A DNA stretch of 64,000 bases from Octopus vulgaris. Lineage: Eukaryota. Below, in pieces: positions 4,526-36,544 of the stretch. The first letter of the stretch is position 1. Each line of letters starts with the position of its first letter. The DNA is taken from NCBI GenBank assembly GCA_951406725.2, contig OX597834.1, positions 24,428,001 through 24,492,000 on the forward strand. Reading direction: 5' to 3'. The translations under genes and the position numbers were made by a program. A model generated the notes under the pieces. That model saw only the letters and a list, made by a program, of their open reading frames with translations. It did not search any database and was not told the DNA's origin.

Positions 4526-4542
4526 GCATATATATATATATA

Positions 4543-5009: not shown

Positions 5010-5313
5010 TAATTTATATAATTATTTTAATCTGCGCATTTCTGAGAATGACTTCTATCTTTCAAACTTTATACTCTATTTCTTTTGTATTCTTGTTTTC
5101 GACGGTGATCTTTTCCATGAATGTAAATATTTTCTCAAATAAACATGCACTTCATTTTAAAAACTCTGAGGAAGGTACAATAAGGTGACGCACAAGCATT
5201 CTACCCTGACTACCGATGTCTCATAGCAGAAACAGCTATAACCTAATGAATTTGATAATGAAATTTCTATTCCCTTGTCATCTGTTTAATTTCTTGATGT
5301 AAGATATAGATTG

Positions 5314-6930: not shown

Positions 6931-7097
6931 ATATATTTTAAGCCTTCAATCGGTGTCTTTTTGCCGAACCGTTAATTTACTGGGACGTAAACACACAGCA
7001 CAAGTTGTCAAGCGGTAGTGGGTGACTAAGACAAACGAACACACACTTACACATACACACGTCCATGTATATATATATATATATATATATACATACA

Positions 7098-7632
7098 CAG
7101 GGTGTCCCAAAAAATGTATACACAGACTGCAACAGTCTGTCATGCCAAGCATTAGAGAGGACTTTGAACAGGAAGAGTTTTATTTCCAGCAAGACGGGGC
7201 ACCTCCACACTACCATCGCGATGTTAGATCCTTTCTTGATGGGATCTTGCCAAACAGGTGGATTGGACGGAGAGGTTTTGTCGAATACCCTCCACGTTCA
7301 GCAGACCTCACACCACTAGACTTCTTTTTATGGGGATACCTAAAGGACAAAGTCTACGCACAGAAACCTGCAACAGTCGTTCAATTGAGGGCAACCATTG
7401 AACATGAACGTACGAATATCCCAAGGGAATTGTTCCATGATGTGTGCCATTCCATCGCTTTGCGTTGTCAGCAGTGTCTGGAGCAGAACGGACATCAGTT
7501 TGAGAACATGCGATAACAAGACAATAGAATGCTATTTGTAAATTCTTTTACATGTTGAAAATTATTCGAATTATAATAAACCCCAAATTTACAATTATTT
7601 AAGGTGTGTATACATTTTTTTGGGACACCCTG
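7098..7632 (+). mobile_element. Internally deleted Tc1/mariner element, DD41D (rosa-type) spacing
   Basis: TIRs cagggtgtcccaaaaaatgtatacac (7098-7123) and gtgtatacatttttttgggacaccctg (7606-7632), with TA at the right end. The transposase C-terminus FQQDGAPPH…PPRSADLTPLDFFLWG has 41 aa between the 2nd and 3rd catalytic D. Confidence 0.9.
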
Positions 7633-7944: not shown

Positions 7945-7959
7945 GGAAGCAAGCTTCTT

Positions 7960-9415
7960 TATTTCAATTATTTTGCCATAAAGGCATTACACAGAGGGGA
8001 CACTACAAAAACATGTGGGGACATATAACAATTAAGAATATGTAAAAATAAAATGATACTGTGAGTGACATGAAAATGAACATGAGAAAATAAATTAAGT
8101 TTATGATAACATGCATGATATCTGAAAATGAAAATATGAAGAGTGTGCTACTCACCCCACACTGAGTAACACCACTCGCTGCCTTTGAGTCCGAATTCGT
8201 CTTTAGTCTCTGGTCTAGTCCTTCTATTTCCACTCTCACTATCGCAACATTCTTTCGCAACCTTTTTCACTGGGGGAGGGGTTTTCTAAATTCTGTGGTG
8301 TCTGCTCTTTTTTCTTTTTCTTTTTTTCTTGTGGGGAAAGGGAGTGGGTGGGTCTGAGTGGTCTTAGGTGGGATGGATTTGGACTGGGGTACCATATCAC
8401 ACTCAGTGTTCTTTCTTTTCTTCCTCTTCTTCCTTCTACTCTCTGCTACTATCCATTCTTCCTCCTTTCGTCCGTCTTTCTTTTCATCCTCTTTTTTCTC
8501 CTTCGTCTCCACAACTGGTTCATCTGTTTTTTCCTCTATCCTTTTCTTCTGTAGTGGGCAGTGTGCTCTAATGTGGCCTTTTTGGCCACATTTAAAGCAT
8601 CGCGGGATTCTGCCTTCCACCCATACTCTTAATACTATTTCTCCCATCGTCACCGTTTCCGCCAAATTTTCCAGCTCCCTCGCCTCCGCTTGTATGATTA
8701 TTTCCAGTATTTTTCCTCTGTAGCTTCCTTCCTCTGTCTCTGTGGCTTGGAGGACAGTCACCTCCTCCTCACTTCCAATGAGGACGGCTGCCGCAACCCA
8801 AGCCACTTTTATGTCAGGTGGAATTCCTTCTTCCCTCACCTTAGAATTCTTTCTTCCAAGATAGGAGGGTAGAAGTACTAGTTCCTCAGTTTTTACAGTT
8901 GTACTTGCCAGCCTCTTTGCCTCCTCTTCTGTCCTAAACTGGACAACCACCGTCCCATATCCGCTTCCTTTTGCTATATATCTTACTTCCTTCGAAGAGC
9001 TTTTTCTACTTTTTCCATCTTCATCTGCTCCACCCTCCTACTCTCCACTGAGTGCACCTTGTAGGTAATAGTCTTCTTTTCCATAGTTACCATAACCGTT
9101 TTCGGGGGTAATAACTTTACATCACTTCCCACCTTCTGTGTCATCTTACACAGCTCCTTCAGTTCGGTTAGGTCTACTTCCTTTTTCTTTACCTCTGCCG
9201 CGTCAGCAAAACTTTTTATTCTTTCCAAATGCTCGTCCATTCTGTTTACCGCCTTAACGAGCTCCTCCTCTGATGAGGATAGTTCATACTCGCTAAGGTC
9301 TGAATACATTCTTTTCCACTAGTACAACACTCGCCAACAAACCGCTGGCGAGCAGCTCAAAAGATTCCGTCCGCCTCGTCAAAACTCAACACAGCAAATA
9401 ATTCGACGCATGCGC
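7960..9415 (-). mobile_element. ORF1-only retroelement, unit 2 (1456 bp)
   Basis: Bounded by ggaagcaagcttctt at 7945-7959 and 9416-9430; A-rich 3' tail; no RT. Confidence 0.88.
8267..9309 (-). pseudogene. Frameshifted ORF1/gag-like zinc-knuckle protein (ORFs 8983-9309 and 8267-8950)
   Basis: CFKCGQKGHIRAHC (CX2CX4HX4C); collinear with the unit 1 ORF, with a small frameshifting deletion near 8990. Confidence 0.85.
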
Positions 9416-9430
9416 GGAAGCAAGCTTCTT

Positions 9431-10879
9431 TATTTTATTAAATTTGCCATAAAGGTAATACACAGAGGGGACACTACAACACATGTGGGGACATATAACA
9501 ATTAAAAATAAGATATGATATAATGAATGAACACGAAAATGCACATGAAGAACAAATTAAAATATGATAATATGAATATCTGAAAATGATAATATTAAGA
9601 GTGTGCTACTCACCCCACACTGAGTAACACAACTCGCTGTCTCTGGGTCCTGAGTCCTTTTTGTCTTTTCGTCCAATCCTTTTCCTTTTTCACTGACACT
9701 TAATGATAACATTCTCTCCGTCATGCATTCATAACCTTTTTCACCGGGAGTGGGGGTCTTCTAAATTTTGTGGTGTCTGTTTTTTCTTTTTCTTTTTTTC
9801 TTGAGGGGAAATGGGCTGGGTGGGTTTGGTGTCTGTATGGGGAGGGTGGGTCTGAGAGGTCTTAGGTGGGATGGGGTTGGACTAGGGTGCCACATCATAC
9901 TCAGTGTCTTTTCTTTTTTTCCTCTTTCTCCCATTGCGCTCTGCAATTTTCCATTCTTCCTCTTTTTTATCGTTTCCTCCGTCTATTTTGTCTTCCTCTC
10001 TTTTCTCTTCTGTCTCCGCAACTATATCCTCAGCCGTAGTCCTTCGTAGAGGGCAGTGTGCTCTAATGTGGACCTTTTGGCCACATTTGAAACAACGTGG
10101 TACTCTGCCCTCTACCCACACCCTCAGCACGATTTCCCCCAGCGTCACAGTCTCTGCCAAGTTCTCAAGTTGTCCCTCTTCCGTCTGAATAATTAACTCG
10201 AGCGTTCTTCCTTTCCACCCTCCTTCTTCTGTTTCTGTGGCTTGGAGGACAGTCACCTTCTCCTCGCTTCCAACAAGGACAGCTGCCGCTACCCAAGCCA
10301 CATTTATATCAGGCGGAATTCCTTCTACCCTTATCTTGGAGGTCCTTCTTCCAAGATACATAGGTAGAAGGACCATTTCCTTCGTCTTTACCGTTTTGCT
10401 CGCCAGCCTCCTTGCCTCCTCCTCTGTTCTAAACTGGACTACCATTGTCCCATATTGGTATCCTCTTGTCATGTATATTACTCCGTTGGATTCCTCCTTT
10501 ACTGCCTTTTCTATTTTCTCTATTTCTATTTGGTCGAACTTCTTACTCTTTATCGAGTAAACTTTGTATATGACGGTTCTTCTTTTTATGCCATCCATTA
10601 TTCTTTGTGGGGGTGACAACGTCACGTTGCCGCCCACTTTCTGCACCATTTTCCCATGCTCCTTCATTCTTGATAAATCCACCTCTTTTCTCTTCACCTC
10701 CACAGCCTCTGCGAAACTCTTCGTTTTCCTCAAGTACTCATCCATGCCTTCTACTGCTCTCAGCAGCTCCTCCTCTGAAGAAGACAGCTCAGACCCGCTA
10801 ATGTCTGAGTACATTGTCTTACCGTTGCAACAAAACCGACTCGCACACAAACGACAAACCAAATGCACTATGGGTAACC
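9431..10879 (-). mobile_element. ORF1-only retroelement, unit 1 (1449 bp)
   Basis: Bounded by ggaagcaagcttctt at 9416-9430 and 10880-10894; the latter continues into the SINE A head. Confidence 0.88.
9882..10814 (-). CDS. Non-LTR ORF1-like nucleic-acid-binding protein (RRM-like region plus CCHC knuckle), about 310 aa
   Basis: The ATG of MYSD is conserved in all three units. Contains CFKCGQKVHIRAHC and a K/E-rich tail. The TAG stop corresponds to CAG in unit 2, so it is probably premature. Confidence 0.8.
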   Translation of the reverse strand: MYSDISGSELSSSEEELLRAVEGMDEYLRKTKSFAEAVEVKRKEVDLSRMKEHGKMVQKVGGNVTLSPPQRIMDGIKRRTVIYKVYSIKSKKFDQIEIEKIEKAVKEESNGVIYMTRGYQYGTMVVQFRTEEEARRLASKTVKTKEMVLLPMYLGRRTSKIRVEGIPPDINVAWVAAAVLVGSEEKVTVLQATETEEGGWKGRTLELIIQTEEGQLENLAETVTLGEIVLRVWVEGRVPRCFKCGQKVHIRAHCPLRRTTAEDIVAETEEKREEDKIDGGNDKKEEEWKIAERNGRKRKKRKDTEYDVAP

Positions 10880-10914
10880 GGAAGCAAGCTTCTTACCACA
10901 CAGCCACGCCTGCG

Positions 10915-10955
<41 letters not shown>

Positions 10956-12486: not shown

Positions 12487-12955
12487 CATAAGGGGGATCA
12501 GCCATCTGAATGTGGCTAGGGTCAGGGCGGGGTGGTGGGGGTGTTACTGATGCATTTAGCCCCAGGCGAACATCAACGTCACCAGAAGGGCTGACACCAT
12601 CTCGGCGTCCTTGCCAGCCTGCAAAGGGAGATCAGCCTCCCCGAAGATACGGATACTACATACGGACCGGTTTCGAGGTTATTGCCTCTTGTCAACGTAT
12701 GGTAAGCACCGCTCTTCGTTGAGGGACTTCCTCTACAGGCTGGATATATAGATTTTCACAGTAAAACCGGTCCGTATGTAGTATCCGTATCTTCGGGGAG
12801 GCTGATCTCCCTTTTCAGGCTGGCAAGGACACCGAGATGGTGTCAGCCCTTCTGGTGACGTTGATGTTCGCCTGGGGCTAAATGCATCAGTAACACCCCC
12901 ACCACCCCGCCCTGACCCTAGCCACATTCAGATGGCTGATCCCCCTTATGTTATA
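12482..12955. repeat. 192-bp inverted repeat with 90-bp spacer (inverted Penelope-type terminal repeat)
   Basis: Arms 12482-12673 and 12764-12955, with two mismatches seen. Confidence 0.92.
12659..12701 (-). ncRNA. Minimal type I hammerhead ribozyme (U3-A8 core variant)
   Basis: CATACG-TTGACAA-GAGG-caataa-CCTC-GAAA-CCGG-TC-CGTATG: stems I and II perfect, palindromic helix III, GUC cleavage triplet. Confidence 0.8.
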
Positions 12956-15801: not shown

Positions 15802-16440
15802 GTGAAGGCTCTTCCGACAAGAGAAAGCAGTTGTTTTTGTATGAATCTTAACAGTAAAAGTTTTAGAAATAATAATACTAATACAAATTACGTTAATAAT
15901 TGCATTGTAATACCTTCTATAATGCATAGTCCCAGAACGGAAATTCCAATTCTTTTAGGAGAGCCTGCAATGAAGGAACAGAGGAATTCCTTTGAAAGAA
16001 ATGCAATGCTAGATCAAACCAAACGTTGGCTTAGAACTGTATTTTTGAGAGATTTCTCAGCATCTCAGAATTTCGCTTCAGAAAATAATCATGAAGGTAC
16101 CAAATCTACCGAAACAGAAAAAGATCAGCCGGGTCATTCGGCAGTAGAGATTGTCCCCTATGACGCGAATGACGTGAATAAATTGACAAATATTAAAAAG
16201 CCAGATAAAAAGCACAAAATCTCCCTTCATGATGCATTGATTCTTGACAAAAAAGACTGGAGTAATCTTTATCTTGGTCCTATAGAGGAAAAAGAGGATC
16301 TGGGTTCACATGAGACGAGAGAGCCAGATGATATAAAATGGAGTAGTAAAAAAATGATTATAATTTGGATAATGACTGCAATTAGTGTGATTGTTCTGAT
16401 TATAACCATTTCTATGTGTGGTCTTGATTTCTGCGACTGA
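15802..16440 (+). pseudogene. Paralog of the 21893-22540 membrane protein; 212 codons open but ATG and signal peptide disrupted
   Basis: Aligned blocks SKSFRNNNTNT, TEIPILL, QTKRWLRTVFLRDFSASQNF, and a TM segment ending FCD*. Frameshifted remnants of GILTLI…DCVII lie at about 15700-15750. Confidence 0.65.
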
Positions 16441-19082: not shown

Positions 19083-21892
19083 CCAATATGTTGGTTATAA
19101 TGCATGTATATACACGAGTTCAAATCTATCCAAACCGACTTTTAATGTTAGAAAGAAAAATTGTGCTTCTAGTATACTTAAACAAACTGGGTGTTGAGGG
19201 AAGGTTTCCGAATTAATGCCCCCCACCCTTTTTCATTAAGAAAGAGTGAGTAACACACACACACACACAGATTGTGTAGATTATCAAATGTAATAAAACG
19301 AAACGCGTCTTAAAACCCTTATATTTTATGGTGTGAATGTCGCCAAGAGATTTTAATATTTAAGTGTTACGGGGAGGAGGAAGCAGCAAATATTTGTAGT
19401 TGAACATCTCGTGTGAAAGAAAGTTTTATTATGGTTAAATTCCCGGAGTATAATAATGAAATAACAGACGGGTGTCAAATTTAGAAACAATCGGAACTAT
19501 ACTGCAAGGCACTTATAGGGTTCCATTGAGTAAATAAAAAAAATCAGAAGACTTGAATTTGAGTGTCAAGATTTGGGTGTAAGGTATCACAATTATAAAC
19601 ATTCTGGGATTTATTTAGCGGATTGAAACAGGAAAGGAATAGAGATACGGCCTCTATAAAGAATTTTATACAAAAATAAATGAAAATTGTACAACTGTCA
19701 TGTTTATATAGAGTTATCAAATGGGTTAAAGATCAGATAAAAATATACTTCCACGATATATTCTGTTATATAAATGGTAACAAAGTTTTCAAAATACACA
19801 CGTTTCTTTAACATTCAGGCCATCTTTGGTGCTCCGTCAACTCAAAATGTTACAATTGCAGAAATTTTTAATATCGTTAATATATACTTCCCAGATTGAT
19901 TGGAATCTAAATCTAAGGTCCATGCAGTATCAGAATCGTGAGAACGTTGTACTAAATTCTTTAAGATACGGTAGGAGACATTACGTTCCAAGTTCGCCGA
20001 TGTCAACTTTTCCTCACAACCATCGGAGGTGTGGACAAACAGTGCCAGTCAAGTACTGTGGAGGTACTGTCAATCTACTACACTCCGTCCATTGTAAGTA
20101 TTTGACGGAGCCAAAGTTAGAACTTCATATTTAAAGCCAATAATCACAGAAAACGCTATTGCGGGAACTCACAGAATCAAGTTCTTGATGGTGAACTCGT
20201 CAATTCTTCCAAAGATGGTCTAATTTTTTTTTATTACCTATAAAAGGTAACACGAAGATGCTTGTCGACAAATGCAAAACATAATATAAAACGTGACAAA
20301 CTAGGGGAACTAAAAATTACAAACAGAGAATGAAACAAGAAAAAAAAAAAGAAACGAATGAGAATATGAAAGAATGAAAATGAGGCGCAATGCCCACTCG
20401 ATCTCCGAAGTCGAGTGGTTAGATTTTTTTTTAACAGTCTTTTCATTAACAACATCTACATATGTAGATTTTTTCAAAGTTCATATTATTTTCCAGTCTT
20501 TTTTCAAATTAAGTTTTTTTTTTTTTTTTTATCTTGGTATCTCAATTCAACCTCCCGTATTCCACTACAGAAGGTGGATCCTCATACAACCAGAACCCAT
20601 CTACCATTTGCAAATGTTAAAAAAAAAAAAAAAAAAATCCATCCATAAGTCTCATTTGCCATCAGGCACCCAAACACCTTTATCATCATATCAAATCCCT
20701 ACTTTGTAGCTCCACTCAGTCCCTTCCATTTCGCAATTTTTTTTCTCTGCATCCACACTTCTCTCATACACCTTCCAAAGATATGACAGCATTGAATGAC
20801 AAAGTGTTATTAATTGGTTTTGCCAAATCTAAGTTAATACTGGTTTCAAATATTGACACAAAGCCAAAAATAGCATGTGGAGTTGGCGAGTCGATTATAT
20901 CCTTACTATAGGCACAAGACCTGAAATTTTGCCGGAGAGGCTAGTTGATTATATATATAAAAAAAAGTAAAGTTGGACTCGGTAGAATTTGAACCCAGAG
21001 CGTTACGAGGCAGAAAAATACAGCAAGGCATTTTTTCCAATATTATAATGAGTCTGCCTCCTTGGCACAATATCTAGATCCGATATACAAAAGAAGCCAG
21101 TTTACATTGCTAAATTACAATGCGTGTGCAATTACGTTTGCTTCATAATGTGGTTTTGGGTTCGAGCCCATGTGCACCTGAAATTAAGATGTAAATGCTC
21201 TTTGTTCTCCGGTTAACCACCACTACATGCACTTTCGGGTTTCTCGTAGACGTTACTTTGTTGCACGCATTCAGACAGTCTCCGATTTGAAGAGATCTGA
21301 TGCCCTGAAACCAGTTATGGCCAATTCCCTTCTGGTTCAAACTAAATTTTCTTCTACAAAGCGATCATTCATACATGAAATGTTATTCAACTGTGAGAAA
21401 TCACGTTATGAAGACTGGTTAGAACAAGAATTGTGCTCAAAAACAAAGAACAACCGTAACAAATTTGACAAAGTTAAAGTCGGACTTCAACAGCGACCAC
21501 AAAATTTGTTTATCTTCAAACTTCAAATAACCTTCAAAATAGTAAAGCTTAACTTAGGACAGGCTATGCCAATCCATAAAGATTTTCTACAGGGGAAAAT
21601 TTCTTCCCTTGAAATTTTTTTTTCAAGCGTGAAATAGACGAGCTTGCAAGTCACTGTCCGCTATTTCCAATAACTTTCGTTGGCTACACTCACCGTCTGG
21701 AGACCGGACGGAATCTCAGTTTCGACAACTGAAAGTATTTGGAAGAATGCACGTATAAATATTAGAGAAAATGTAGCTTTGCATCATAATCACAGTCTTC
21801 GAACAAAAACTTCATTTGAAATTAAAAATTAATAAGTAGTGAAATTTAATAAATACGAGAATTATTTTACTAACAAAAGTCACATTGGTTTC

Positions 21893-22540
21893 TCATCCGC
21901 AGAAAGCATACAAACACACTGAAAGGATTATAATGAGAATAGTTATACTAATTCCGCAGAGGGTCCAAATCGTCACAACTTTTTTAAGACTCATTCTTGG
22001 AGTCGTTGTCCAGTTGTATACAGGTGTCGTCAATTCCTGGTCAGAAGATTCCATAATATTGGTTAATGGCACCTTAGAATTCGATATTGTGCTCATTGCT
22101 GTGGTACCACTAGAGAAAACCTCTTCTGAAGGAACAACTGTATTATCAGGAGCTACTTCAAGATAATTTCTATCAGTGAAATTACGAGAGGGCGAGAAAA
22201 TTTTCATCAGCACAGATCTCACCCAGCGTTTTGTTCGTTCCATTTTTGTACTGCTTTCAGAAAAATTTTTCGTCTGTTCCTTCGTTGTTGGCTCTAAGAA
22301 AAGTTGAATTTCGGTTTTGTGAGTAGCAGGTGTCACAGTAAAATTAGCAGCGGTGTTAGTATTGTTACTTTCAAAACTCTTGCCGTTAATGTCTACAGAG
22401 AAATCGTCGTGTTCCTTCGTGAGAAGAGCCATTACTGGAACACTATCGTTATTCACGTTGTCAGGTGAAGCAATAATAACACAATTAGCTGTAAGACATA
22501 ACTGGTTGAAGACCAACGCTAGAATACCTTTAAGGACCAT
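21893..22540 (-). CDS. Uncharacterised single-pass Ser/Thr-rich glycoprotein, 215 aa
   Basis: Signal-peptide-like N-terminus, at least 6 N-glycosylation sequons, RTKR furin-type motif, C-terminal hydrophobic helix; paralog at 15802. Confidence 0.75.
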   Translation of the reverse strand: MVLKGILALVFNQLCLTANCVIIASPDNVNNDSVPVMALLTKEHDDFSVDINGKSFESNNTNTAANFTVTPATHKTEIQLFLEPTTKEQTKNFSESSTKMERTKRWVRSVLMKIFSPSRNFTDRNYLEVAPDNTVVPSEEVFSSGTTAMSTISNSKVPLTNIMESSDQELTTPVYNWTTTPRMSLKKVVTIWTLCGISITILIIILSVCLYAFCG

Positions 22541-22885
22541 TTTTTGTTCGTTCCGTATATTAGCACTTCTCTGCTGGTTTGGTTCTTTGTGTGCCTGACT
22601 CGTCTATAAAAAATTTACGCTTATAGGCTTGGTTTTTATTATCCACGATGCTAATTTATTTTTACCCACAATGCGTCACGAAGACATTTCTCATGAAAAA
22701 ATGAATGATATGGATTTATACAAATGAGAATTAGACGGTCACCCCGTCCCCACTCCTGGCCGGTTACGTTTTTACAATTATTTCAAATGTTTTACAAGAT
22801 TTCTCTTTCCTTTTAAAATATTCATTATCCATTCACGGTTTTCTCTTTTTTTCCAAATTTTTAAAACCGTTATTTCAGAATACTT

Positions 22886-24544
22886 GATTCTTTATTACCC
22901 ACGAGGGGCCACACAGAGGGGACACTACAAACATTGGGGACATAGAACATCACAATCACAAGAATGAAAGATGGATTTTGAAAATGATATTATGAAAGTG
23001 ATGCTAACGGCCCCATCCGCTAGCATCACTTACCTGTCCTTTAGTTGTTAATCCCACACAAATGTTCCTTGTTCCATTCCTATACAAAATCCTTCCATCT
23101 CCATCCTTTTTTCAAACGTCTCTTCCAAATCCCTCATGATTTTTTCAACCATTCTCACTTCACTTACTTCCCAATCCTCCCTTTCACACATTTCCATAAA
23201 CTCGTCCATTCGTCCTTTTCCAATTACTGCATACCTGATCTTTCCTCTGTCACACCATTGATACTCTTCCATTTTCTTTTTAATCTTTTCTTTTCCCGTC
23301 ATACATACAATGTTTGGCCTGGGTTCATTTTTTGTGTCTTGGTTTTGTGTGTCTTTTCTTTTCTGTTTTCTTGTTGGAGGGGAGCGGGTGGGTTCACTGT
23401 CTGCAGGGAGAGGGTGGGACTCAGAGGGTGTGGGTGGTGTTGGGGTTCCATGTTGTTTTCTTTTCCTCTTATTCTCCTCTTTCTCTTTTTCCTGGCTTCT
23501 TCCCATTCTTGTGAATTTTCTTCCTCTTCTACTGTCTCCTTCTCTGGTTTCTGTTCTTTTTCCTCCTCACTTTGTGGCTCGGAATCCATTTCTTTCACTG
23601 GGGGACTGCAGTAAGCTCTTATGTGACCCCTCAGGCCACACTTGTAACAACGTGGAGCTCTGCCCTCCACCCACACTCTCATGGTTACGTCTCCCAATCT
23701 GATGTTTTCTGCTAGGTCCACCAGTACATCATCCTCTGCCTGCACATTTAGTTCCAGTGTCACACCTCTCCAGCCCTCGGTCTTAACCGAGGCATGGAGG
23801 ATGTCCACTTCATCTTCGTGGCCGCTGATTATAGCCGCCACAATCCACTCGGCTTCGACGTTTGGGGGTATTCCCTCGACCCTTACTCTTGTAATTTTTC
23901 TATTTAAATATGTAGGCAAAAGTATTACCTTCTCGGATTTCTCCGCCTTCGCCGCCATCTTCCTTGCTGCAGTCTCACTTTTGAACTGTACTACTACAGT
24001 ACCATATTTTGAACCTCTCGTCAGAAAATGAATTTCCTCTTCCGTTCTTCTTAGCGCCTCCTCTATCCACTCCATGTTTACCACTTCTATCTTTCTCTTT
24101 CCGCTTGCGTATACCCTGTATGTGATTGTCCTTTTCTCGTGCCATTCTTTTCTCTTGGGTATCGGTGCTAGTTCGACCTCACCGCTGTCCTTCTTCATAT
24201 ATTTCTGGAAACTTGGCAGCTTGGCCAAGTCCACCCCTTTCTCTTCCGCCTTCTTGGTCACACCGGCACAGGTATAACCCAGCTTCTGATCCATTTTCCT
24301 CACTGCTTCTTCTAGTTCCTCCTCGGACGTAGACAAGTCTGATAGAGACCCAAAAACTCTAGCCGTCTCTCCCATCAGGGAGGGGTCGTCCATATCCTCC
24401 TGTCTGGCAGACCGAAAACGGCCGCCCGAACAGAAACACGAAACCGTATCAACAAACGTACAAAATTCCACAACAACAATTTTCCCACTTACTTTTTGTT
24501 CTTTTTTACAAATTTCACGAGCCGAAAAAAACACAACTTACGTA
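22886..24544 (-). mobile_element. Solo ORF1-only retroelement (1659 bp) with 17-bp TSD
   Basis: gttatttcagaatactt (22869-22885) and gttatttcacaatactt (24545-24561); 3' tail gtcccctctgtgtggcccctcgtgggtaataaagaa. Confidence 0.88.
23048..24393 (-). CDS. ORF1-like CCHC zinc-knuckle protein (open 24393-23299; C-terminus probably continues in the 23048-23506 frame)
   Basis: CYKCGLRGHIRAYC; homologous to units 1 and 2 (RVEGIPP, RVWVEGR.PRC). Confidence 0.78.
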
Positions 24545-24820
24545 GTTATTTCACAATACTTTTTACTTACCCATTTTATGTCTTGTTTAATATCCTCAGA
24601 ATCTACCACTGGCGGACGGGGTTCATTTCTCACCTCCAGCCCCAGTGGGTTCATTTCCAATGGAAATGTTTCTTTTAATGTTCTCTATTTTCCTTCCTCT
24701 GTCAAAATACATTTCATGTTCCTATCACATCCCTCTGTTAGTTTAACCCTTGCAATATTTTTCATTTTACATATTTTCTTTTCAATTTTTGGACCTGCAC
24801 AGTATGTTATCAAATATATA

Positions 24821-25091
24821 TTTCTTTACTACCCACAAGGGGCTAAACACAGAGGGGACAAACAAGGACAGACAAACGGATTAAGTCGATTACATCGACC
24901 TCAGTGCGTGACTGGTACTTAATTTATCGACCCCGAAAGGATGAAAGGTAAAATCGACCTCGGCGGGATTTGAACTCAGAACGTAACGGCAGACGAAATA
25001 CGGCTACGCATTTCGCCCGGTCTGGGAATCGAAACCGCGATCCTACGATCGCGAGTCCGCTGCCCTAACCACTAGGCCATTGCGCCTCCAC
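24821..25091 (-). mobile_element. Chimeric SINE: family C tRNA head joined to family B body and tail
   Basis: The junction falls in CCGGGCG, which both families share (about 25014-25020). Confidence 0.8.
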
Positions 25092-27310: not shown

Positions 27311-27779
27311 CCGTTCAAAGCAACCAGTGTCAGATAACTGCATAAAATTTGTGTACCTCAGAAAAGAGAAATGTCTGATTTTAAAGATTAAGTTTATTTC
27401 AAATTTATAAAACTTTGGAATTACTGTATTAAACACTATCAAAAATCACAAGTTGTTTGTACAGTAAGTATTTATAGTTTTCTTTGAACAGAAAATATTT
27501 TAATTCATAAAGATTTTCAAGTGAATGACATAATATTTTTCAGTAAAAGTGACTTAAAAATTACAAATTGTACAGTGAGTATTTATATTTCAGCTTTCTT
27601 TAAACAAACAATATTCTAATTATTAGAAAGTATTTTTAAGTGAATAGGATTTGAAAACTACGAGTTTGTACAGTAAATAACTATTTCTTTAAACAGACAA
27701 TATTTTCATTTACAAATATTTTTCAGTGATTTAAAAAAAAATATTTTGAGGTAATAGGAAGTTTTCGAAGGTGGATACG

Positions 27780-28420
27780 ATTTCATTCTTAGAGCATGCC
27801 TCGATGAGGAAGAAAACAGCTGGTTGGTCTATAGATAGTAAGAGAGTTGAAGAATGTCAGCAAGATAGTGGTGAACGCCAAAAACAAGATCAAGACAGGC
27901 ATGCGAATAGAAGGATCGACAAGAGTGAATGTCTCGCGGAAGAGTGAAAGAGACAGAAGCTGGCGAGATGTATCGGACGCTCGGAGAACTAAGCGGGTGG
28001 CGGAACTGAGGGAAAAACAGAGGAGTTCAGGAATAGCATGTTCGGAGAGCTGAGCTTATCGCAGAACAGAGGGAAAAAAGACAGAAAAGAGATCACGAAT
28101 CAGACGCTCGGAGAGCTGAACGTCTTTGCCAACGAACCATTGAGAATAGAGCAAGGACTGATCTCTGCTAATATTGGGCAGATGAATAAGAACCGTGTCT
28201 TGTAATGCAATGCTTTTTCATTGTGACACTGCTAACTTTTGCTGTATGAAAAGTTACGCTGGGGAATATGCACCCTTCGAGGAACTTAAACATTTAGCAA
28301 TTTATTTAGTACTGATCAACCTTGGGCAAACGAGTTCGGGAAGAATCTCAGACAGTACAACTGCGCGTTCTAAATGACATCTTTTGGGGCCGAAGAAGTT
28401 CTTTCCTCAAGGAGTGGATG
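27780..28420 (+). mobile_element. Helitron RepHel N-terminal coding relic (partial copy at about 31610-32106)
   Basis: R/E/Q-rich repeats, then NIGQMN…SCNAMLFHCDTANFCC (Zn-finger) and NEFGKNLRQYNCAF*MTSFGA, matching the Helitron NIRxYNxAFxMTSFG motif. AT-rich subrepeats of about 100 bp lie upstream (27457-27730). Confidence 0.72.
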
Positions 28421-28652
28421 GAGTGAATAATACTGCCAAAAGACAAGTAAACAGGACCAACGGTTCCCGAGATAGTTTTTTTTTTTCGGTGGTGGGTACC
28501 TTTATAAATAGCTGAACCTGCGTATAATGGAAAAATTAGGATTAGGAATGGAGTGAAACAGCTAAATATTCGAGTTTAAACATTTGCAACTGATTAAGTC
28601 GGTGGTGATACATAGTTACAATTATTAGGAAGTCAAAACATCGACTACTCTA

Positions 28653-29787
28653 CGAGGGTCGACTGAAAAGGTCATCGGCTGACCAAGATATCTTCATGGA
28701 ATGAAATCGATTTTTTCAGTCTCTTGTGGTCCACAGTTCTTTCATGGCTGTTGTGGTTCTTTAATCCCAAAGATTTCATCCTGCTCCTCAAAAAAGTCAA
28801 TAGATATCACGTTATCGTTAATGCGATTTTGATTCCAAGCCAAGCGGGTTTTTGCCATGTTGAAGTTGAGCGAGTCAGATGGAACCAAAATCAAGAGAGT
28901 AATCAACCAATTTAAAGCCAGTCACGTACAACAGCAACCGAAGCCAAAAACTATGCTCGAGTACTGTCCTGATGAAACGAGACTTTTTGTCAGTTTTCCT
29001 TTCGTAAATGCATCAGCATGGGACTCTCCATTGATAGTGTGGCTTTTTTGAAGAGTTAATATCATTTGCATTACAAATGGCTGAGGCCATCACTATCCCA
29101 GTAGATGAAACAACCGCAACTATCTTTAGAGCAGCTGAAGAGGGTTATTTCCATTGCATGGAGAAAGCCAATGCGCACCATGGGGTAGGAAACATTCAAG
29201 GAAAACCAGCTGATCTACGTCAAACGATGTCGGATTTTCCCGTGATATGATCAGCCTTGTGTACTTTCGATCAAGTGTCAGAAGACGTGGCACCCATCGA
29301 GTAGAAACTTGTGTCTGGCCCAGTTCATCGTGTAGAATAGTCTTAATTCCCCACAGGATATACTAATATTGGCTACTTGCTACATAGCTAATCGCCTATT
29401 ACACATGTGAACACGAGCAACGTTTTTCTCTAGCGACAGTTGCAGGACGTGCAGACGTTGGGTCATCTTCAAGACTTCGCTTCCTCCTAAATTCAGCTGC
29501 CCACTTTTGCATTGGTGATAAAGTTAGAGAGTCACCTCGTAATATAGCAACCCTGTCAGTATACCATTGGGGGACAAACCATTTCTTTGCAGGTATAGAG
29601 ACGACAATGCTAATTTTTGTCAATTTCCAAGAGCAGTCGTTAGTTTTTTTTAAAGTCGTTTTTGAACAGTTAATGGTAAGTTCACAGGAAATAAATAGTT
29701 ATTAAAAGTGGAAATTAATGCATGTGAGATTTAACTGCTCTATCACTTCTTGATAGGAAGCGTGTGAACTTGTCAGCACACCACTCG
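28653..29787 (-). mobile_element. Degraded mariner transposon
   Basis: TA-flanked diverged TIRs (cgagggtcgactgaaaaggtca / tgaacttgtcagcacaccactcg); peptides KWAAEFRR…LEDDP…RP and RWVPRLLT. Confidence 0.8.
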
Positions 29788-30315
29788 TACAATTCGATAC
29801 AAGCAAGGGCTTTTCTTGATCGACTTAAGTTGCCGAACAGATTTTATTACATCCTACATCAAAGGAAAGGGAATATCTGATAAATACGAATCCAGTCTAG
29901 AGAAAAAGAAAGCGGGATTTGAGGGTTGGAACGTCTTTGCTTCATTGTTGAGAATTTTCAAAAGGATCGGATTTTTTTCGATTTAATTGCAGTCATTTAG
30001 ATACGACGGCAAGCTTTGTATATACTTTCAATAGTTAAAAATCGAGTTATTTTTGAACAAGTTTGATAAGCAAAACTGGATTTTTTGCGGAAATTTGAAT
30101 CTTTCCTTTGCTTATATTGAACCTTTGAATTTATAAAGGAAGCTGGTAAACAGGAACATAAACAAATAGTTAATAACATTAGTTTTAGTCGTTAAGGTTT
30201 TAGAAAAAAATCAGAACGGGGATTCAATCTCAAAACAGGAAGGAAAAAAAATTTCACAACGGTTAAAGTTCTTAGTGAAAACGTGTAATGGGTACAAGTT
30301 AATAAATCGAGTCAT

Positions 30316-31002
30316 TCAGTAGTACGTTGGAACTACAATAAGTGGGGTTTCACGCAAATATTTGCGATAAAACAGGTAAATACAGAGAACAACTAATCCA
30401 ATACAAACAACAATAAATAACCAGAAAGCCAAGGTCCTCATTGTGGACTCTTGTTCAGGTGGGGGAGTTGATGAAAAATGCAAGTAGGTTATTAAGTCTA
30501 TTTCTGTAGTGGAGGTTATAACTCCGTTGGTCGGACTTCTGGTAGAATTGGTAGCGGATATAGTGACCGTTTCATTAGGTAGCAGAGAGTAAAGAGGACT
30601 GGTAAGAGTTGTGTTTGCTAATCCATTCTTTGTCGTCTGTTTCAAGTTCAGTGTGTCAGTGATGTTGGAGGACAAAAATGATTGTGTTCGGTACAGACTG
30701 GTAAGTTCAGAGTTAAATTCTGTAGAATTTCGTTCAGCTTCTGTTGTCGTACTGAAGTTAGCAACAACAGGATGGATAGAACTCGAGCTGGTTCGAAATT
30801 TATCGAACGCAGTATGGTTTCGAGATAATCCCAGCGACGGCAAAGTGCTGTGTGAAGACTGCTTTAAATTGTTGACAGCAGCAAAGAATTTAGGTTGGAT
30901 GACGGAAGCTTCTGGAAGATTTGCCGCAACATTTCGCTGGGTAACGGATAACAGCCAAACTTGTGTAATGGCAAAGCATAAGAAATAAAGAATTCCTTCC
31001 AT
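30316..31002 (-). CDS. Uncharacterised mucin-like type I membrane protein, 228 aa
   Basis: Signal peptide, S/T-rich ectodomain with 7 NxS/T sequons, TM LAFWLFIVVCIGLVVLCIYLFY, tail RKYLRETPLIVVPTYY. Confidence 0.8.
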   Translation of the reverse strand: MEGILYFLCFAITQVWLLSVTQRNVAANLPEASVIQPKFFAAVNNLKQSSHSTLPSLGLSRNHTAFDKFRTSSSSIHPVVANFSTTTEAERNSTEFNSELTSLYRTQSFLSSNITDTLNLKQTTKNGLANTTLTSPLYSLLPNETVTISATNSTRSPTNGVITSTTEIDLITYLHFSSTPPPEQESTMRTLAFWLFIVVCIGLVVLCIYLFYRKYLRETPLIVVPTYY

Positions 31003-31071
31003 TATAGAGTCCTCTCTATGTATTTACAATAACAATCTGCTCACCAGCTCTTCCTGGAATGATTTTTTTGA

Positions 31072-31171
31072 NNNNNNNNNNNNNNNNNNNNNNNNNNNNN
31101 NNNNNNNNNNNNNNNNNNNNNNNNNNNNNNNNNNNNNNNNNNNNNNNNNNNNNNNNNNNNNNNNNNNNNNN
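31072..31171. other. Assembly gap (100 N)
   Basis: Directly visible. Confidence 1.
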
Positions 31172-32185
31172 ATTTGTGTACCTCAGAAAAGAGAAATGTC
31201 TGATTTTAAAGATTAAGTTTATTTCAAATTTATAAAACTTTGGAATTACTGTATTAAACACTATCAAAAATCACAAGTTGTTTGTACAGTAAGTATTTAT
31301 AGTTTTCTTTGAACAGAAAATATTTTAATTCATAAAGATTTTCAAGTGAATGACATAATATTTTTCAGTAAAAGTGACTTAAAAATTACAAATTGTACAG
31401 TGAGTATTTATATTTCAGCTTTCTTTAAACAAACAATATTCTAATTATTAGAAAGTATTTTTAAGTGAATAGGATTTGAAAACTACGAGTTTGTACAGTA
31501 AATAACTATTTCTTTAAACAGACAATATTTTCATTTACAAATATTTTTCAGTGATTTAAAAAAAAATATTTTGAGGTAATAGGAAGTTTTCGAAGGTGGA
31601 TACGATTTCATTCTTAGAGCATGCCTCGATGAGGAAGAAAACAGCTGGTTGGTCTATAGATAGTAAGAGAGTTGAAGAATGTCAGCAAGATAGTGGTGAA
31701 CGCCAAAAACAAGATCAAGACAGGCATGCGAATAGAAGGATCGACAAGAGTGAATGTCTCGCGGAAGAGTGAAAGAGACAGAAGCTGGCGAGATGTATCG
31801 GACGCTCGGAGAACTAAGCGGGTGGCGGAACTGAGGGAAAAACAGAGGAGTTCAGGAATAGCATGTTCGGAGAGCTGAGCTTATCGCAGAACAGAGGGAA
31901 AAAAAGACAGAAAAGAGATCACGAATCAGACGCTCGGAGAGCTGAACGTCTTTGCCAACGAACCATTGAGAATAGAGCAAGGACTGATCTCTGCTAATAT
32001 TGGGCAGATGAATAAGAACCGTGTCTTGTAATGCAATGCTTTTTCATTGTGACACTGCTAACTTTTGCTGTATGAAAAGTTACGCTGGGGAATATGCACC
32101 CTTCGAGTTTAAACATTTGCAACTGATTAAGTCGGTGGGGATACATAGTTACAATTATTAGGAAGTCAAAACATCGACTACTCTA

Positions 32186-33317
32186 CGAGGGTCGACTGAA
32201 AAGGTCATCGGCTGACCAAGATATCTTCATGGAATGAAATCGATTTTTTCAGTCTCTTGTGGTCCACAGTTCTTTCATGGCTGTTGTGGTTCTTTAATCC
32301 CAAAGATTTCATCCTGCTCCTCAAAAAAGTCAATAGATATCACGTTATCGTTAATGCGATTTTGATTCCAAGCCAAGCGGGTTTTTGCCATGTTGAAGTT
32401 GAGCGAGTCAGATGGAACCAAAATCAAGAGAGTAATCAACCAATTTAAAGCCAGTCACGTACAACAGCAACCGAAGCCAAAAACTATGCTCGAGTACTGT
32501 CCTGATGAAACGAGACTGTCAGTTTTCCTTTCGTAAATGCATCAGCATGGGACTCTCCATTGATAGTGTGGCTTTTTTGAAGAGTTAATATCATTTGCAT
32601 TACAAATGGCTGAGGCCATCACTATCCCTGTAGATGAAACAACCGCAACTATCTTTAGAGCAGCTGAAGAGGGTTATTTCCATTGCATGGAGAAAGCCAA
32701 TGCGCACCATGGGGTAGGAAACATTCAAGGAAAACCAGCTGATCTACGTCAAACGATGTCGGATTTTCCCGTGATATGATCAGCCTTGTGTACTTTCGAT
32801 CAAGTGTCAGAAGACGTGGCACCCATCGAGTAGAAACTTGTGTCTGGCCCAGTTCATCGTGTAGAATAGTCTTAATTCCCCACAGGATATACTAATATTG
32901 GCTACTTGCTACATAGCTAATCGCCTATTACACATGTGAACACGAGCAACGTTTTTCTCTAGCGACAGTTGCAGGACGTGCAGACGTTGGGTCATCTTCA
33001 AGACTTCGCTTCCCTCCTAAATTCAGCTGCCCACTTTTGCATTGGTGATAAAGTTAGAGAGTCACCTCGTAATATAGCAACCCTGTCAGTATACCATTGG
33101 GGGACAAACCATTTCTTTGCAGGTATAGAGACGACAATGCTAATTTTTGTCAATTTCCAAGAGCAGTCGTTAGTTTTTTTTAAAGTCGTTTTTGAACAGT
33201 TAATGGTAAGTTCACAGGAAATAAATAGTTATTAAAAGTGGAAATTAATGCATGTGAGATTTAACTGCTCTATCACTTCTTGATAGGAAGCGTGTGAACT
33301 TGTCAGCACACCACTCG
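32186..33317 (-). mobile_element. Degraded mariner (duplicate of 28653-29787)
   Basis: Near-identical sequence. Confidence 0.8.
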
Positions 33318-33846
33318 TACAATTCGATACAAGCAAGGGCTTTTCTTGATCGACTTAAGTTGCCGAACAGATTTTATTACACCCTACATCAAAGGAAAGG
33401 GAATATCTGATAAATACGAATCCAGTCTAGAGAAAAAGAAAGCGGGATTTGAGGGTTGGAACGTCTTTGCTTCATTGTTGAGAATTTTCAAAAGGATCGG
33501 ATTTTTTTCGATTTAATTGCAGTCATTTAGATACGACGGCAAGCTTTGTATATACTTTCAATAGTTAAAAATCGAGTTATTTTTGAACAAGTTTGATAAG
33601 CAAAACTGGATTTTTTGCGGAAATTTGAATCTTTCCTTTGCTTATATTGAACCTTTGAATTTATAAAGGAAGCTGGTAAACAGGAACATAAACAAATAGT
33701 TAATAACATTAGTTTTAGTCGTTAAGGTTTTAGAAAAAAATCAGAACGGGGATTCAATCTCAAAACAGGAAGGAAAAAAAAATTTCACAACGGTTAAAGT
33801 TCTTAGTGAAAACGTGTAATGGGTACAAGTTAATAAATCGAGTCAT

Positions 33847-34533
33847 TCAGTAGTACGTTGGAACTACAATAAGTGGGGTTTCACGCAAATATTTGCGATA
33901 AAACAGGTAAATACAGAGAACAACTAATCCAATACAAACAACAATAAATAACCAGAAAGCCAAGGTCCTCATTGTGGACTCTTGTTCAGGTGGGGGAGTT
34001 GATGAAAAATGCAAGTAGGTTATTAAGTCTATTTCTGTAGTGGAGGTTATAACTCCGTTGGTCGGACTTCTGGTAGAATTGGTAGCGGATATAGTGACCG
34101 TTTCATTAGGTAGCAGAGAGTAAAGAGGACTGGTAAGAGTTGTGTTTGCTAATCCATTCTTTGTCGTCTGTTTCAAGTTCAGTGTGTCAGTGATGTTGGA
34201 GGACAAAAATGATTGTGTTCGGTACAGACTGGTAAGTTCAGAGTTAAATTCTGTAGAATTTCGTTCAGCTTCTGTTGTCGTACTGAAGTTAGCAACAACA
34301 GGATGGATAGAACTCGAGCTGGTTCGAAATTTATCGAACGCAGTATGGTTTCGAGATAATCCCAGCGACGGCAAAGTGCTGTGTGAAGACTGCTTTAAAT
34401 TGTTGACAGCAGCAAAGAATTTAGGTTGGATGACGGAAGCTTCTGGAAGATTTGCCGCAACATTTCGCTGGGTAACGGATAACAGCCAAACTTGTGTAAT
34501 GGCAAAGCATAAGAAATAAAGAATTCCTTCCAT
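33847..34533 (-). CDS. Mucin-like type I membrane protein; translation identical to 30316-31002
   Basis: Identical 228-aa translation in the ORF track. Confidence 0.8.
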   Translation of the reverse strand: MEGILYFLCFAITQVWLLSVTQRNVAANLPEASVIQPKFFAAVNNLKQSSHSTLPSLGLSRNHTAFDKFRTSSSSIHPVVANFSTTTEAERNSTEFNSELTSLYRTQSFLSSNITDTLNLKQTTKNGLANTTLTSPLYSLLPNETVTISATNSTRSPTNGVITSTTEIDLITYLHFSSTPPPEQESTMRTLAFWLFIVVCIGLVVLCIYLFYRKYLRETPLIVVPTYY

Positions 34534-35199
34534 TATAGAGTCCTCTCTATGTATTTACAATAACAATCTGCTCACCAGCTCTTCCTGGAATGATTTTTTT
34601 TGATTTCTGATTTTTTCAGATTAAATACTAAACCAATTTCATTGTAGTGATTGTTATTAAAATTAGATTCTAAAATTTCTATCTTTCAGATATGTTCTGT
34701 TTAATATTCAAATTAATTTTTGCCTAAACTAAGTTTTTTATTCATCCTCTCCCACACATATTTTGCTTCCTTTTTCTTCTCACTATTCCTTTCTAGCATT
34801 CTCTCTATTTATTTCTTTACCAGTTTTGAGAACAATTTAAGTTCAATTCTCCTGTAAGTCAATCGCGTATAAGCAAATAGCATTTTTTCTCTTTTCGTTG
34901 CTTTTCGTATATTTTTCTTTCCTTTTCTCGTTACTTAATCTACCCCTAGCAGTTTAAGTAACCTCTAAAAGTTCATCAACCTCCAGAAAGTAATTAACAC
35001 CAGAAATGTTAAATTCGATTTAATTTCGTGCTTCTTCATTCTAAGTTATAATTTCAAGCAGTATCGAAGCAGATTTTTGATTTTCATGATCCCGGGTCGA
35101 TAAAATTGTTACCAGTCATACAAAGGGGTTAGTTGTATGGCAATACATCTCTATAAATGCCAATGCAAAGATTTATTAAGAATGAATCTCGAAGAAACT

Positions 35200-35423
35200 A
35201 AAGAACAAAAGAGAAAAGGAGAAAGAAAAAAACGCACTTAACACCAAAGGTGAAGACACCTCCGAAAGTGGGGGGAGGGGCACCACGTCGAAAACGGTAG
35301 AGGAGTAGGGGCCGAAACCGGACGTGGTTCCTCCTGATGATGTCTTTAGCCCATCCGAGAATCTGACCCCACATCAGGTTGTATTGTCCCCTCTTTGTTT
35401 GCCCCTTGTGGGTAATAATAAAA
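35200..35423 (+). mobile_element. 5'-truncated element carrying the shared L1/Tx1-type 3' tail
   Basis: tgtcccctctttgtttgccccttgtgggtaataataaaa; the direct repeat gatgtctttagcc at 35339-35351 and 35426-35438 may be a TSD for a 74-bp insert. Confidence 0.55.
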
Positions 35424-35599
35424 CGGATGTCTTTAGCCACTGGATCCTATAAAGGAGCTGTTGAGGTAGCGAACCACAAAACGTACTCGAAATTCCTAGT
35501 CGTTCCACCCGGTAGAAATAGAAGAGAAATCTTCAAACCAAGCCTTGTTATCTCCCAAAAGTGTAACCATGACTTTCTGTATCGGTCTCTGGCTACCGA

Positions 35600-36436
35600 A
35601 CTTCCTCGCTCGAATGTTTTTTCTCGTGTCACCGGCACGGAAGCCAGTCAGCTGCTCTGGCGACGATCACGCTCGGATGGTGCTCTTAACGCTCCAATGG
35701 CACGGGTGCCAGTCATCGAATTCGATTCGATTTCGATTTCATTTGCCTTAATAGGTCTTTGCAAGCAGAGTTTAGTGTCAAATGAAGGAAAGATACGCAT
35801 AAGTGGGCTGGTTACACCCCTGGCATAGGCCACGGGTTATGGTCTCACTTAGATTGCCGGGTCTTCTCACGCACAGCATATTTCCATAGGTCTCGGTCAC
35901 TAGTCATTGCCACCGTGAGGCCTAATGTTCGAAGGTCGTGCTTCACCATCTCATCCCAGGTCTTCCTGGGTCTACCTTTTCCACAGGTTCCCTTAACCGC
36001 TAGAGTGTGGCACTTTTTGACACAGCTATCCTCATCCATTCTCTCCACATAACCATAACAGCGCAGTCGTCTCTCTTGCACGCCACATCTGATGCTTCTT
36101 AGGTCCAGCTTTTTTCTCAAGGTACTTACACTCTGTCAAGTATGTACACTGACATTACATATCCAGCAGAGCATACTGGCTTCATTCCTTGCGAGCTTAC
36201 GCATATCCTCAGCAGTCACGGCCCATGTTTCACTGCCATGTAGCATGGCTGTTCGCACACATGCGTCATACAGTCTATTTTTTATTCTGAGCGATAGGTC
36301 CTTTGCCACAAGCAGAGGTAGGAGCTCTCTGAACTTTGCCCAGGCTATTCTTATTCTAGCAGCTACACTTTCAGCGCACCCTCCCCCACTACTGACTTGG
36401 TCACCTAGGTAACGGAAGCTATCAACTACCTCTAGC
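35600..36436 (-). mobile_element. RTE-clade LINE 3' fragment
   Basis: EVVDSFRYLG…RIRIAWAKFRELLPLL…LYDACVRTAMLHGSETW and RRLRCYGYVERM…GRPRKTW are typical of the RTE ORF C-terminus. Confidence 0.88.
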
Positions 36437-36544
36437 ACAAATTACCCTACAGCACAAATTATCCCCCACTACCTCACTAAAATGTAATAAATACTTGGAA
36501 ACGAGACCTTACCGGCGACGACGACAATGCATGTGTGTGTTAGG

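What the first reader, a model, noticed from the sequence alone, without database searches (positions are those of the whole stretch)
22869..24561. Solo ORF1-only element with a 17-bp TSD shows these are complete mobile units
Seen: a 1659-bp element between gttatttca(g/c)aatactt repeats, comprising a 5'UTR, an ORF1 homologous to the array units, a 3'UTR and a tail, with no room for ORF2. Ordinary LINE truncation removes the 5' end, so ORF1 joined directly to the 3' tail inside a TSD implies the RNA was mobilised in this form. It has a different target from the array, suggesting a subfamily with different or relaxed specificity. It lies about 345 bp upstream of the ATG of the 21893-22540 gene on the same strand.
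Basis: partly seen in the sequence, partly recalled or inferred. Interest (0 to 1): 0.7.

Follow-up and report, generated by a model that had tools for sequence, protein, structure and literature searches.

The report
Octopus ORF1-only hitchhiking retrotransposon copy
This is one old, now broken copy of a repeated octopus jumping gene that carries only the RNA-binding half of a LINE and must borrow its copying enzyme from a full element, a way of life already known in mammals and insects.

Summary
A 1659-bp minus-strand element lies between 17-bp repeats (16 of 17 identical, unique in the window; probably 18 bp in other individuals). It carries an ORF1 predicted to fold as two RRM domains plus a CCHC knuckle, a short 3' UTR and a tail shared with the array units and a SINE-like repeat. 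There is no room for ORF2.

Three corrections. (1) The 364-aa ORF1 is frameshifted: relatives have about 10 more bases at 23446 and the homologous frame runs to 23048, so this copy is damaged. (2) The target is the ORF1 end of an older relative, so the insertion is nested. (3) The TSD alone does not prove mobilisation without ORF2. Better evidence: three divergent copies share the short ORF1-to-tail layout; two array units diverged at dN/dS 0.18; the element is multi-copy along its length in four public runs; its 5' end follows its own tail in head-to-tail joins.

Named homologs are all octopod. Best reading: a HAL1/HeT-A/Sponge-type non-autonomous LINE, probably served by a Tx1-like partner that I could not identify. 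No full-length relative was seen on one contig.

The parts
24545..24561 (-). 5' copy of the target-site duplication (18 bp with 24544 in three other runs)
24394..24544 (-). 5' UTR; homology to relatives begins at 24537-24538, and some relatives have ~14 further shared bases
   Evidence: tables 5, 5c
23048..24393 (-). ORF1, frameshifted near 23446 in this copy (first frame stops at 23299; homologous frame continues to 23048)
23899..24162 (-). first RRM-fold domain (residues 78-165)
   Evidence: AlphaFold2 mean pLDDT 88.7; La RRM Z 8.5, rmsd 2.5, 81 aligned; tandem-RRM proteins E 2e-5
23656..23904 (-). second ferredoxin-like (RRM- or ACT-like) domain (residues 164-246)
   Evidence: best Z 8.0 to an ACT-type chain; RRM pairs align at Z about 7
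23608..23649 (-). single CCHC zinc knuckle (residues 249-262)
   Evidence: seen in the sequence; PF00098 hits unit 2 and 20 of 125 alignment members but not this copy
22886..23047 (-). 3' UTR, 162 nt
22994..23036 (-). strong hairpin just after the ORF1 stop, starting in a splice-donor-like 9-mer
   Evidence: -24.9 kcal/mol, z -6.7, 0 of 200 shuffles; motif list
22886..22945 (-). 3' tail shared with the array units, five SINE-like copies and a 74-bp insertion
   Evidence: 7 matches against 0.04 expected
22869..22885 (-). 3' copy of the target-site duplication
24562..24816 (-). host element, upstream part: decayed ORF1 C-terminal domain of an older relative
   Evidence: tblastn with P0018 47% identity, E 3e-7; HMM iE 7.8e-11; z 27.8, 0 of 300 shuffles
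22655..22868 (-). host element, probable downstream part ending in a tail-like word at 22662-22671
   Evidence: 3 matches against 0.26 expected; 2 of 100 shuffles reach 3; joints 22792-24574 and 22723-24628 in other runs; weak
9431..10879 (-). array unit 1 (related ORF1-only element, 1449 bp)
7960..9415 (-). array unit 2 (1456 bp), with 15-bp spacer copies at 10880-10894, 9416-9430 and 7945-7959
24816..25017 (-). SINE-like repeat with the same tail, abutting the host element

Best explanation
The element is one old copy of an octopod family of non-autonomous LINEs that keep ORF1 and lack ORF2. Shown: the layout (5' UTR, ORF1, short UTR, tail, TSD), the predicted fold, many copies, and nesting in an older relative. 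Inferred from established LINE biology: the unit is transcribed from its 5' UTR; it makes its own ORF1p, which binds mainly the RNA that made it, so ORF1 stays under selection; the conserved 3' tail is recognised in trans by the ORF2p of an autonomous LINE, probably of the Tx1 group, which also moves the SINE; target-primed reverse transcription leaves a 13-18 bp duplication. Target choice is loose, and new copies often land right behind an older copy, which builds head-to-tail arrays. This copy landed at the ORF1 end of an older relative, before the lineages of the four runs split, and later took a frameshift.
For: TSD unique in the window. Same stop-to-TSD distance in solo, unit 1 and unit 2, although solo and array proteins are only 40-48% identical. 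Unit 1 against the C-terminal half of unit 2: dN/dS 0.18 (bootstrap 0.10-0.30, 158 codons; differences by codon position 21/24/68). Both units share the same ORF-end-to-UTR junction, so the selection acted without ORF2 in cis (inference). In all 14 inner bins of all four runs, summed contig depth is at least 25x, 18x, 6x and 14x the unique flank (not a copy number). One X2 contig with 11 differences in 119 nt and depth 151 (flank 55) runs from 23141 through the stop to 23024, only 24 nt into the UTR. Nine of 11 rows in table 5c join the 5' end to the family's own tail, with 7 distinct spacers, in X2, X5 and X6. Fold of two RRM-like domains plus CCHC, the type I ORF1p of Tx1-like LINEs (PMC5203782, passages). 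No RT or endonuclease Pfam hit in 129 of the 150 listed homologs that were scanned; weak, since ORF2 is a separate frame.
Against: No contig spans a whole relative, so no copy outside the window was seen end to end. Loose ends at 23041-23042 (X4 7+4 contigs, X5 2, X6 5) show other upstream sequences joined to the same 3' UTR. These could be ORF2 ends of a partner or other ORF1-only subfamilies. 531 loose-end rows were not shown. No exact empty site was found. The joints were called at 85% likeness with short sides (18-48 nt). The partner LINE was not identified. The last 84 residues of the second frame do not match the homologs' C-terminal domain (z at most 1.4).
Confidence: 0.84

Rival explanations
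1. A full LINE inserted here and lost ORF2 by deletion afterwards; the family is ordinary and autonomous.
For: A TSD is compatible with this. The copy is old and damaged. Other upstream sequences join the same UTR.
Against: It needs independent deletions that leave ORF1 whole and 162-188 nt before the TSD in three divergent copies. A diverged, multi-copy contig crosses the ORF1 stop into the UTR.
Confidence: 0.08
2. The ORF1-only copies are recurrent dead-end by-products (spliced or template-jumped copies) of autonomous elements; the selection on ORF1 happened in the autonomous parents.
For: A splice-donor-like 9-mer sits at the ORF1 end of solo, both units and the host. Each ORF1 lineage in the tree could have its own full-length parent.
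Against: Splicing would remove the donor, but it is kept. Units 1 and 2 share one junction and UTR yet differ by dS about 0.9.
Confidence: 0.06
3. The head-to-tail joins and high depth come from DNA-level tandem amplification or from circles, not from repeated retrotransposition.
For: A join from 5' end to tail is also what a circle gives (circular LINE products are reported in PMC3510499; search listing only).
Against: Seven different spacers, two of them in both X2 and X6. The window's own array is chromosomal, with units about 27% diverged.
Confidence: 0.02

Closest known systems
ORF1-present bipartite non-autonomous LINEs: HAL1 (L1 clade), HeT-A (Jockey clade), Ag-Sponge (CR1 clade); PMC5786205 and PMC5753468, passages read
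   Same: 5' part with ORF1 joined to the 3' end, no ORF2, dependent on an autonomous partner; several divergent lineages.
   Different: Octopod host; ORF1p with two RRM-like domains and one CCHC, not the mammalian Transposase_22 type; a conserved sequence tail shared with a SINE-like repeat instead of a poly(A) end; interstitial tandem arrays instead of telomeres.
Tx1-clade LINEs and Tx1-driven SINEU-3 (PMC4494074, passages read)
   Same: Insertion into other repeats, and tandem copies that sandwich one TSD by sequential insertion; RRM/CCHC ORF1p (PMC5203782, passages).
   Different: No RT is present to place this family in Tx1. Sites of tail-sharing elements in the window are unrelated to each other, so no strict target is shown.
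SINE/LINE pairs with a common 'stringent' 3' tail (PMC3747384, passages read)
   Same: About 40 nt of 3' sequence with a small terminal stem-loop shared between different element types.
   Different: Here the tail is shared between a SINE-like repeat and a protein-coding passenger; the autonomous owner was not found, and folding of the tail is no better than shuffles.

Membership tests
ORF1-present non-autonomous LINE (HAL1/HeT-A/Sponge kind) | Encodes an ORF1p-like protein | tested here: met
   Two RRM-like domains plus CCHC; Atlas neighbours with zf-CCHC, RRM_1 and ZCCHC3 RNA-binding domains at 0.89-0.92
ORF1-present non-autonomous LINE (HAL1/HeT-A/Sponge kind) | No ORF2 between ORF1 and the 3' end | tested here: met
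   162, 175 and 188 nt from stop to TSD in three copies
ORF1-present non-autonomous LINE (HAL1/HeT-A/Sponge kind) | Multiplied in this form, with TSDs | tested here: met
   TSDs at solo and array; multi-copy depth and head-to-tail joins. No outside copy was seen end to end, so the support is indirect.
ORF1-present non-autonomous LINE (HAL1/HeT-A/Sponge kind) | 5' and 3' parts derive from an identified autonomous LINE | tested here: inconclusive
   A candidate ORF2 end with a similar tail at 4540-5010 rests on a recalled motif; the search found nothing and the Pfam scan gave no family
HAL1 proper | Derived from mammalian L1, with Transposase_22-type ORF1p | tested here: not met
   No Transposase_22 hit in 125 alignment members; the predicted fold has two RRM-like domains and a CCHC; named homologs are octopod
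Tx1 clade | RT phylogeny within Tx1 | not testable with these tools
   No ORF2 in the element and no genome held
Tx1 clade | RRM plus CCHC (type I) ORF1p | tested here: met
   Not diagnostic: Jockey, L2 and CR1 elements also have two RRMs, there with three CCHC (PMC4120745, passages)
Tx1 clade | Target-sequence preference | tested here: inconclusive
   The array has three units behind one 15-bp word in a repeat head. A GGTAAG word precedes the solo and array sites but not the other sites with a TSD
SINE | Non-coding, with a small-RNA-derived head | tested here: not met
   Codes for ORF1; no Rfam family at gathering score in 4000-26000

The most novel reading that the evidence does not exclude
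Octopods carry an old radiation of ORF1-only elements: many lineages only 25-45% identical in protein persist without ORF2 of their own, share one borrowed reverse transcriptase with the genome's abundant SINE through a common tail, and nest in each other. They also keep a splice-donor-like site and a hairpin at the ORF1 end, through which ORF1 could be spliced onto downstream host exons, as in the ORF1-C2H2 zinc-finger gene model P0007. That would make the split of LINE functions between separate elements a stable state, and tie it to octopus gene novelty.
Probability: 0.2. Interest if true: 0.7.

Novelty: new member of a known kind. Interest (0 to 1): 0.42.

Why it matters
ORF1-keeping passengers are reported from three LINE clades (PMC5786205). 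An octopod family would add a fourth, probably Tx1-related, case. With many copies and several diverged lineages, it allows a direct test of whether ORF1p acts in cis while ORF2p is borrowed. It also explains a set of 'uncharacterized' octopus gene models as transposon ORF1. I found no description in seven searches of the open library. Repbase, Dfam and subscription papers were not searchable, so the family may already be catalogued there.

Tried and rejected
No genome is held, so genomic copies could not be counted. The word-based protein search with the solo ORF1 found nothing; a search for longer fused forms with the alignment, limited to 1092-3115 aa, found nothing (weak). The tail pattern had no match in metagenome contigs. 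The one locus from a protein search there (L001) is a bacterial chance hit. No RNA holder was listed among 24 runs, so read-through into the 21893-22540 ORF is untested. No exact empty site appeared in four runs.

My idea that the last 84 residues of the second frame are the homologs' conserved C-terminal domain was not supported. My idea of one shared target motif fits 2 of the 5-6 sites with a TSD. The 3' tail does not fold better than shuffles (7 of 7 z-scores between -1.5 and 1.2). Substitutions between this copy and relatives (21 listed rows in the ORF, of 265 rows in all) are mixed, 6 synonymous, as for a decaying copy; the 6 rows between 23336 and 23450 are all third positions of the second frame. 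The 4540-5010 fragment could not be confirmed as an ORF2 end. The HAL1 paper of Bao and Jurka 2010 is not held. Five window proteins are not in the collection by exact sequence. The scan's own notes held nothing by place or sequence.

Full report
Observation. The 17-mer at 22869-22885 recurs at 24545-24561 with one mismatch and nowhere else in the 64 kb at up to three mismatches. The 1659 bp between them hold a minus-strand ORF at 24393-23299 that is 40-48% identical to the array units at 7.9-10.9 kb. The last 40 or so bases match the unit tails. The ATG at 22540 is 346 bp beyond the element's 3' end. No genome is held for the window.

Host group. An HMM search with four window sequences found 725 proteins at E up to 0.001 and listed 150. 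I looked up 25 of them. Eleven carry an organism name, all octopods: O. vulgaris, O. sinensis, O. bimaculoides and Argonauta hians. The other 14 are unnamed. In a tree of 23 rows the solo ORF1 pairs with O. sinensis P0005 (100/98), and the array units form a separate clade (98/92) among many deep lineages.

Protein. Pfam does not hit the solo ORF1, but it hits the CCHC knuckle of unit 2 and of 20 of 125 alignment members. AlphaFold2 on residues 1-270 gave mean pLDDT 88.7. Foldseek returned tandem-RRM proteins (best E 2e-5, low whole-chain TM-scores). The wide structural search put residues 78-165 on the La RRM (Z 8.5, rmsd 2.5, 81 aligned) and residues 164-246 on ferredoxin-like ACT or RRM folds (Z 7-8). 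RRM plus CCHC is the type I ORF1p, found with Tx1-type elements in non-mammalian animals (PMC5203782, passages). It is not diagnostic, as Jockey, L2 and CR1 elements can carry two RRMs with three knuckles (PMC4120745, passages).

The copy is broken. Contigs from four public DNA runs with four organism labels were laid on 21700-24812 at 85% likeness. At 23446, 15 contigs of X2 and 17 of X4 run on with about 10 bases that the window lacks. Downstream of that point the second frame, open from 23566 to 23048, matches P0005 with score 135 against 40 for the first frame; P0002 and P0031 agree (67 against 24, 69 against 46). All six listed substitution rows between 23336 and 23450 fall on third codon positions of the second frame. 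So ORF1 is about 450 residues in relatives and the UTR is 162 nt. The last 84 residues of that frame do not match the homologs' C-terminal domain, which stays unexplained.

The target. The upstream flank 24571-24816 encodes the C-terminal domain of ORF1 homologs: P0018 matches at 47% identity (E 3e-7), and an HMM built from eight homolog tails that I chose by eye, P0018 among them, hits only this place in the six frames (iE 7.8e-11). The pairwise z-score is 27.8. One frame reads on through both copies of the duplication. A tail-like 10-mer lies about 200 bp downstream at 22662 (weak). The flanks next to the element have 1.6-2.8 times single-copy depth in X2 and X4, and other contigs join 22792 to 24574 and 22723 to 24628 with unknown letters between. 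This fits uninterrupted copies of an older relative. The insertion is therefore nested, and the remnant of the host element separates it from the neighbouring ORF.

Age. The 5' junction is bridged in X2, X4 and X5 (24486-24812), and the 3' junction in X6 (22169-22917). X2, X4 and X5 reach only 27 nt past the 3' junction, under the tool's 31-nt rule. X4 and X5 differ from the window by 10 substitutions in about 1200 nt of flank, X2 by one. No exact empty-site joint appeared. In three runs base 24544 is C, which makes the duplication 18 bp. The insertion is thus shared and not recent.

Is the family ORF1-only? Four lines support the conclusion. First, solo, unit 1 and unit 2 have 162, 175 and 188 nt between stop and TSD. 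Second, unit 1 against the C-terminal half of unit 2 gives dN/dS 0.18 (0.10-0.30; 158 codons), synonymous sites are saturated in the other three comparisons, and dN is 0.28-0.47. The two units share one ORF-end and UTR, so I infer that selection acted in an ORF2-less lineage. Third, all 14 inner bins carry at least 25, 18, 6 and 14 times the flank depth in the four runs; this is summed contig depth, not a copy number. One diverged X2 contig at 2.7 times flank depth crosses the stop by 24 nt. Fourth, 9 of 11 rows of table 5c join the 5' end to the family's own tail, with seven distinct spacers of 2-31 nt in three runs. Tandem copies that sandwich a TSD are known for Tx1-driven SINEU-3 (PMC4494074, passages).

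Against. No contig spans a relative. Loose ends at 23041-23042 in three runs show other sequences upstream of the same UTR, which may be ORF2 ends or other subfamilies; 531 loose-end rows were not shown. The joints have short sides and were called at low likeness. No RT or endonuclease family was found in 129 of the 150 listed homologs scanned, but ORF2 is a separate frame, so this weighs little.

Tail and partner. A 20-nt tail pattern has 7 matches against 0.04 expected: the element, five copies of a ~240-bp repeat and a 74-bp insertion at 35352-35425. I call the repeat SINE-like; its tRNA origin is recalled and was not shown. Duplications of 12-18 bp flank 4 of 7 other tail-bearing sequences examined, at unrelated sites. 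The array instead sits in the head of another short repeat with four more matches in the window. This supports loose target choice with repeated insertion behind an existing copy. A fragment at 4540-5010 ends in a similar tail and reads like a Tx1 ORF2 C-terminus from memory only; two checks did not confirm it. I put the Tx1 origin at about 0.7.

Comparison. Kojima lists HeT-A (Jockey), HAL1 (L1) and Ag-Sponge (CR1) as non-autonomous LINEs that keep ORF1 (PMC5786205, passages; HAL1 also in PMC5753468, passages). This element meets three of four defining features of that kind, and its autonomous parent is unidentified. It is not HAL1 proper. The O. vulgaris repeat annotation lists recently active L1-Tx1 families (PMC13282606: first third read; term search of main text, and of its one supplement) and does not use the terms 'autonomous' or 'ORF' in its main text. 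The octopus brain LINE paper concerns RTE and Dong elements (PMC9115989, passages). PMC3747384 and PMC4758252 were seen as passages. Seven searches found no ORF1-only octopus element; Repbase, Dfam and the O. vulgaris repeat library itself were not available and may hold it.

Verdict. A real, old, frameshifted copy of a multi-copy octopod ORF1-only LINE passenger, nested in an older relative. It is a new member of a known kind. The points worth following are the depth of the ORF1 radiation, the tail shared with a SINE-like repeat, and a splice-donor-like 9-mer at the ORF1 end of all four related elements (4 of 16 such words on both strands of the window; chosen after seeing it, and the four are not independent).

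Noticed in passing
window 23028-23036, 9608-9616, 8150-8158, 24565-24573 (minus): A splice-donor-like 9-mer lies at the ORF1 end of the solo element, both array units and the host element (4 of 16 in the window), followed or overlapped by a hairpin in solo (z -6.7) and in the units (z about -2).
   Followed up: partly
window 35339-35438 (plus): A 74-bp insertion made only of the shared tail, between exact 13-bp repeats (35339-35351, 35426-35438): an extremely 5'-truncated copy.
   Followed up: partly
window 4540-5010 (plus): Decayed frame that resembles, from recall, a Tx1 ORF2 C-terminus, then a UTR and a similar tail; candidate autonomous partner, unconfirmed.
   Followed up: partly
window 10880-10920 (minus): The array is inserted in the head of a short repeat; four other matches to this head in the window, and the 15-bp spacer equals the target word.
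   Followed up: partly
window 21893-22540 (minus), 15841-16440 (plus): Two paralogous ORFs without Pfam family (29% identity over 168 aa, E 1e-16), Ser/Thr-rich, each with a hydrophobic C-terminal segment; 30316-31002 has a similar build.
   Followed up: partly
window 27347-31069 and 31172-34600: A 99%-identical duplication on both sides of a 100-N gap (31072-31171), including the ORF 30316-31002 / 33847-34533; probably an assembly overlap.
   Followed up: no
proteins P0007, P0031, P0046, P0107: Gene models that fuse this ORF1 to C2H2 zinc fingers, a Helitron helicase, LDL-receptor repeats or another host-like protein; may be prediction artefacts or real chimeras.
   Followed up: no
window 35840-36440 (minus): Decayed frame that resembles, from recall, the RT C-terminal part of an RTE-type LINE; no Pfam hit.
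   Followed up: no
window 7019-7620: A Tc1/mariner-like transposase remnant (recalled motif; no Pfam hit) with inverted ends lies next to the truncated third array unit.
   Followed up: no
window 12510-12850: A long near-perfect inverted repeat between two TA microsatellites (seen).
   Followed up: no
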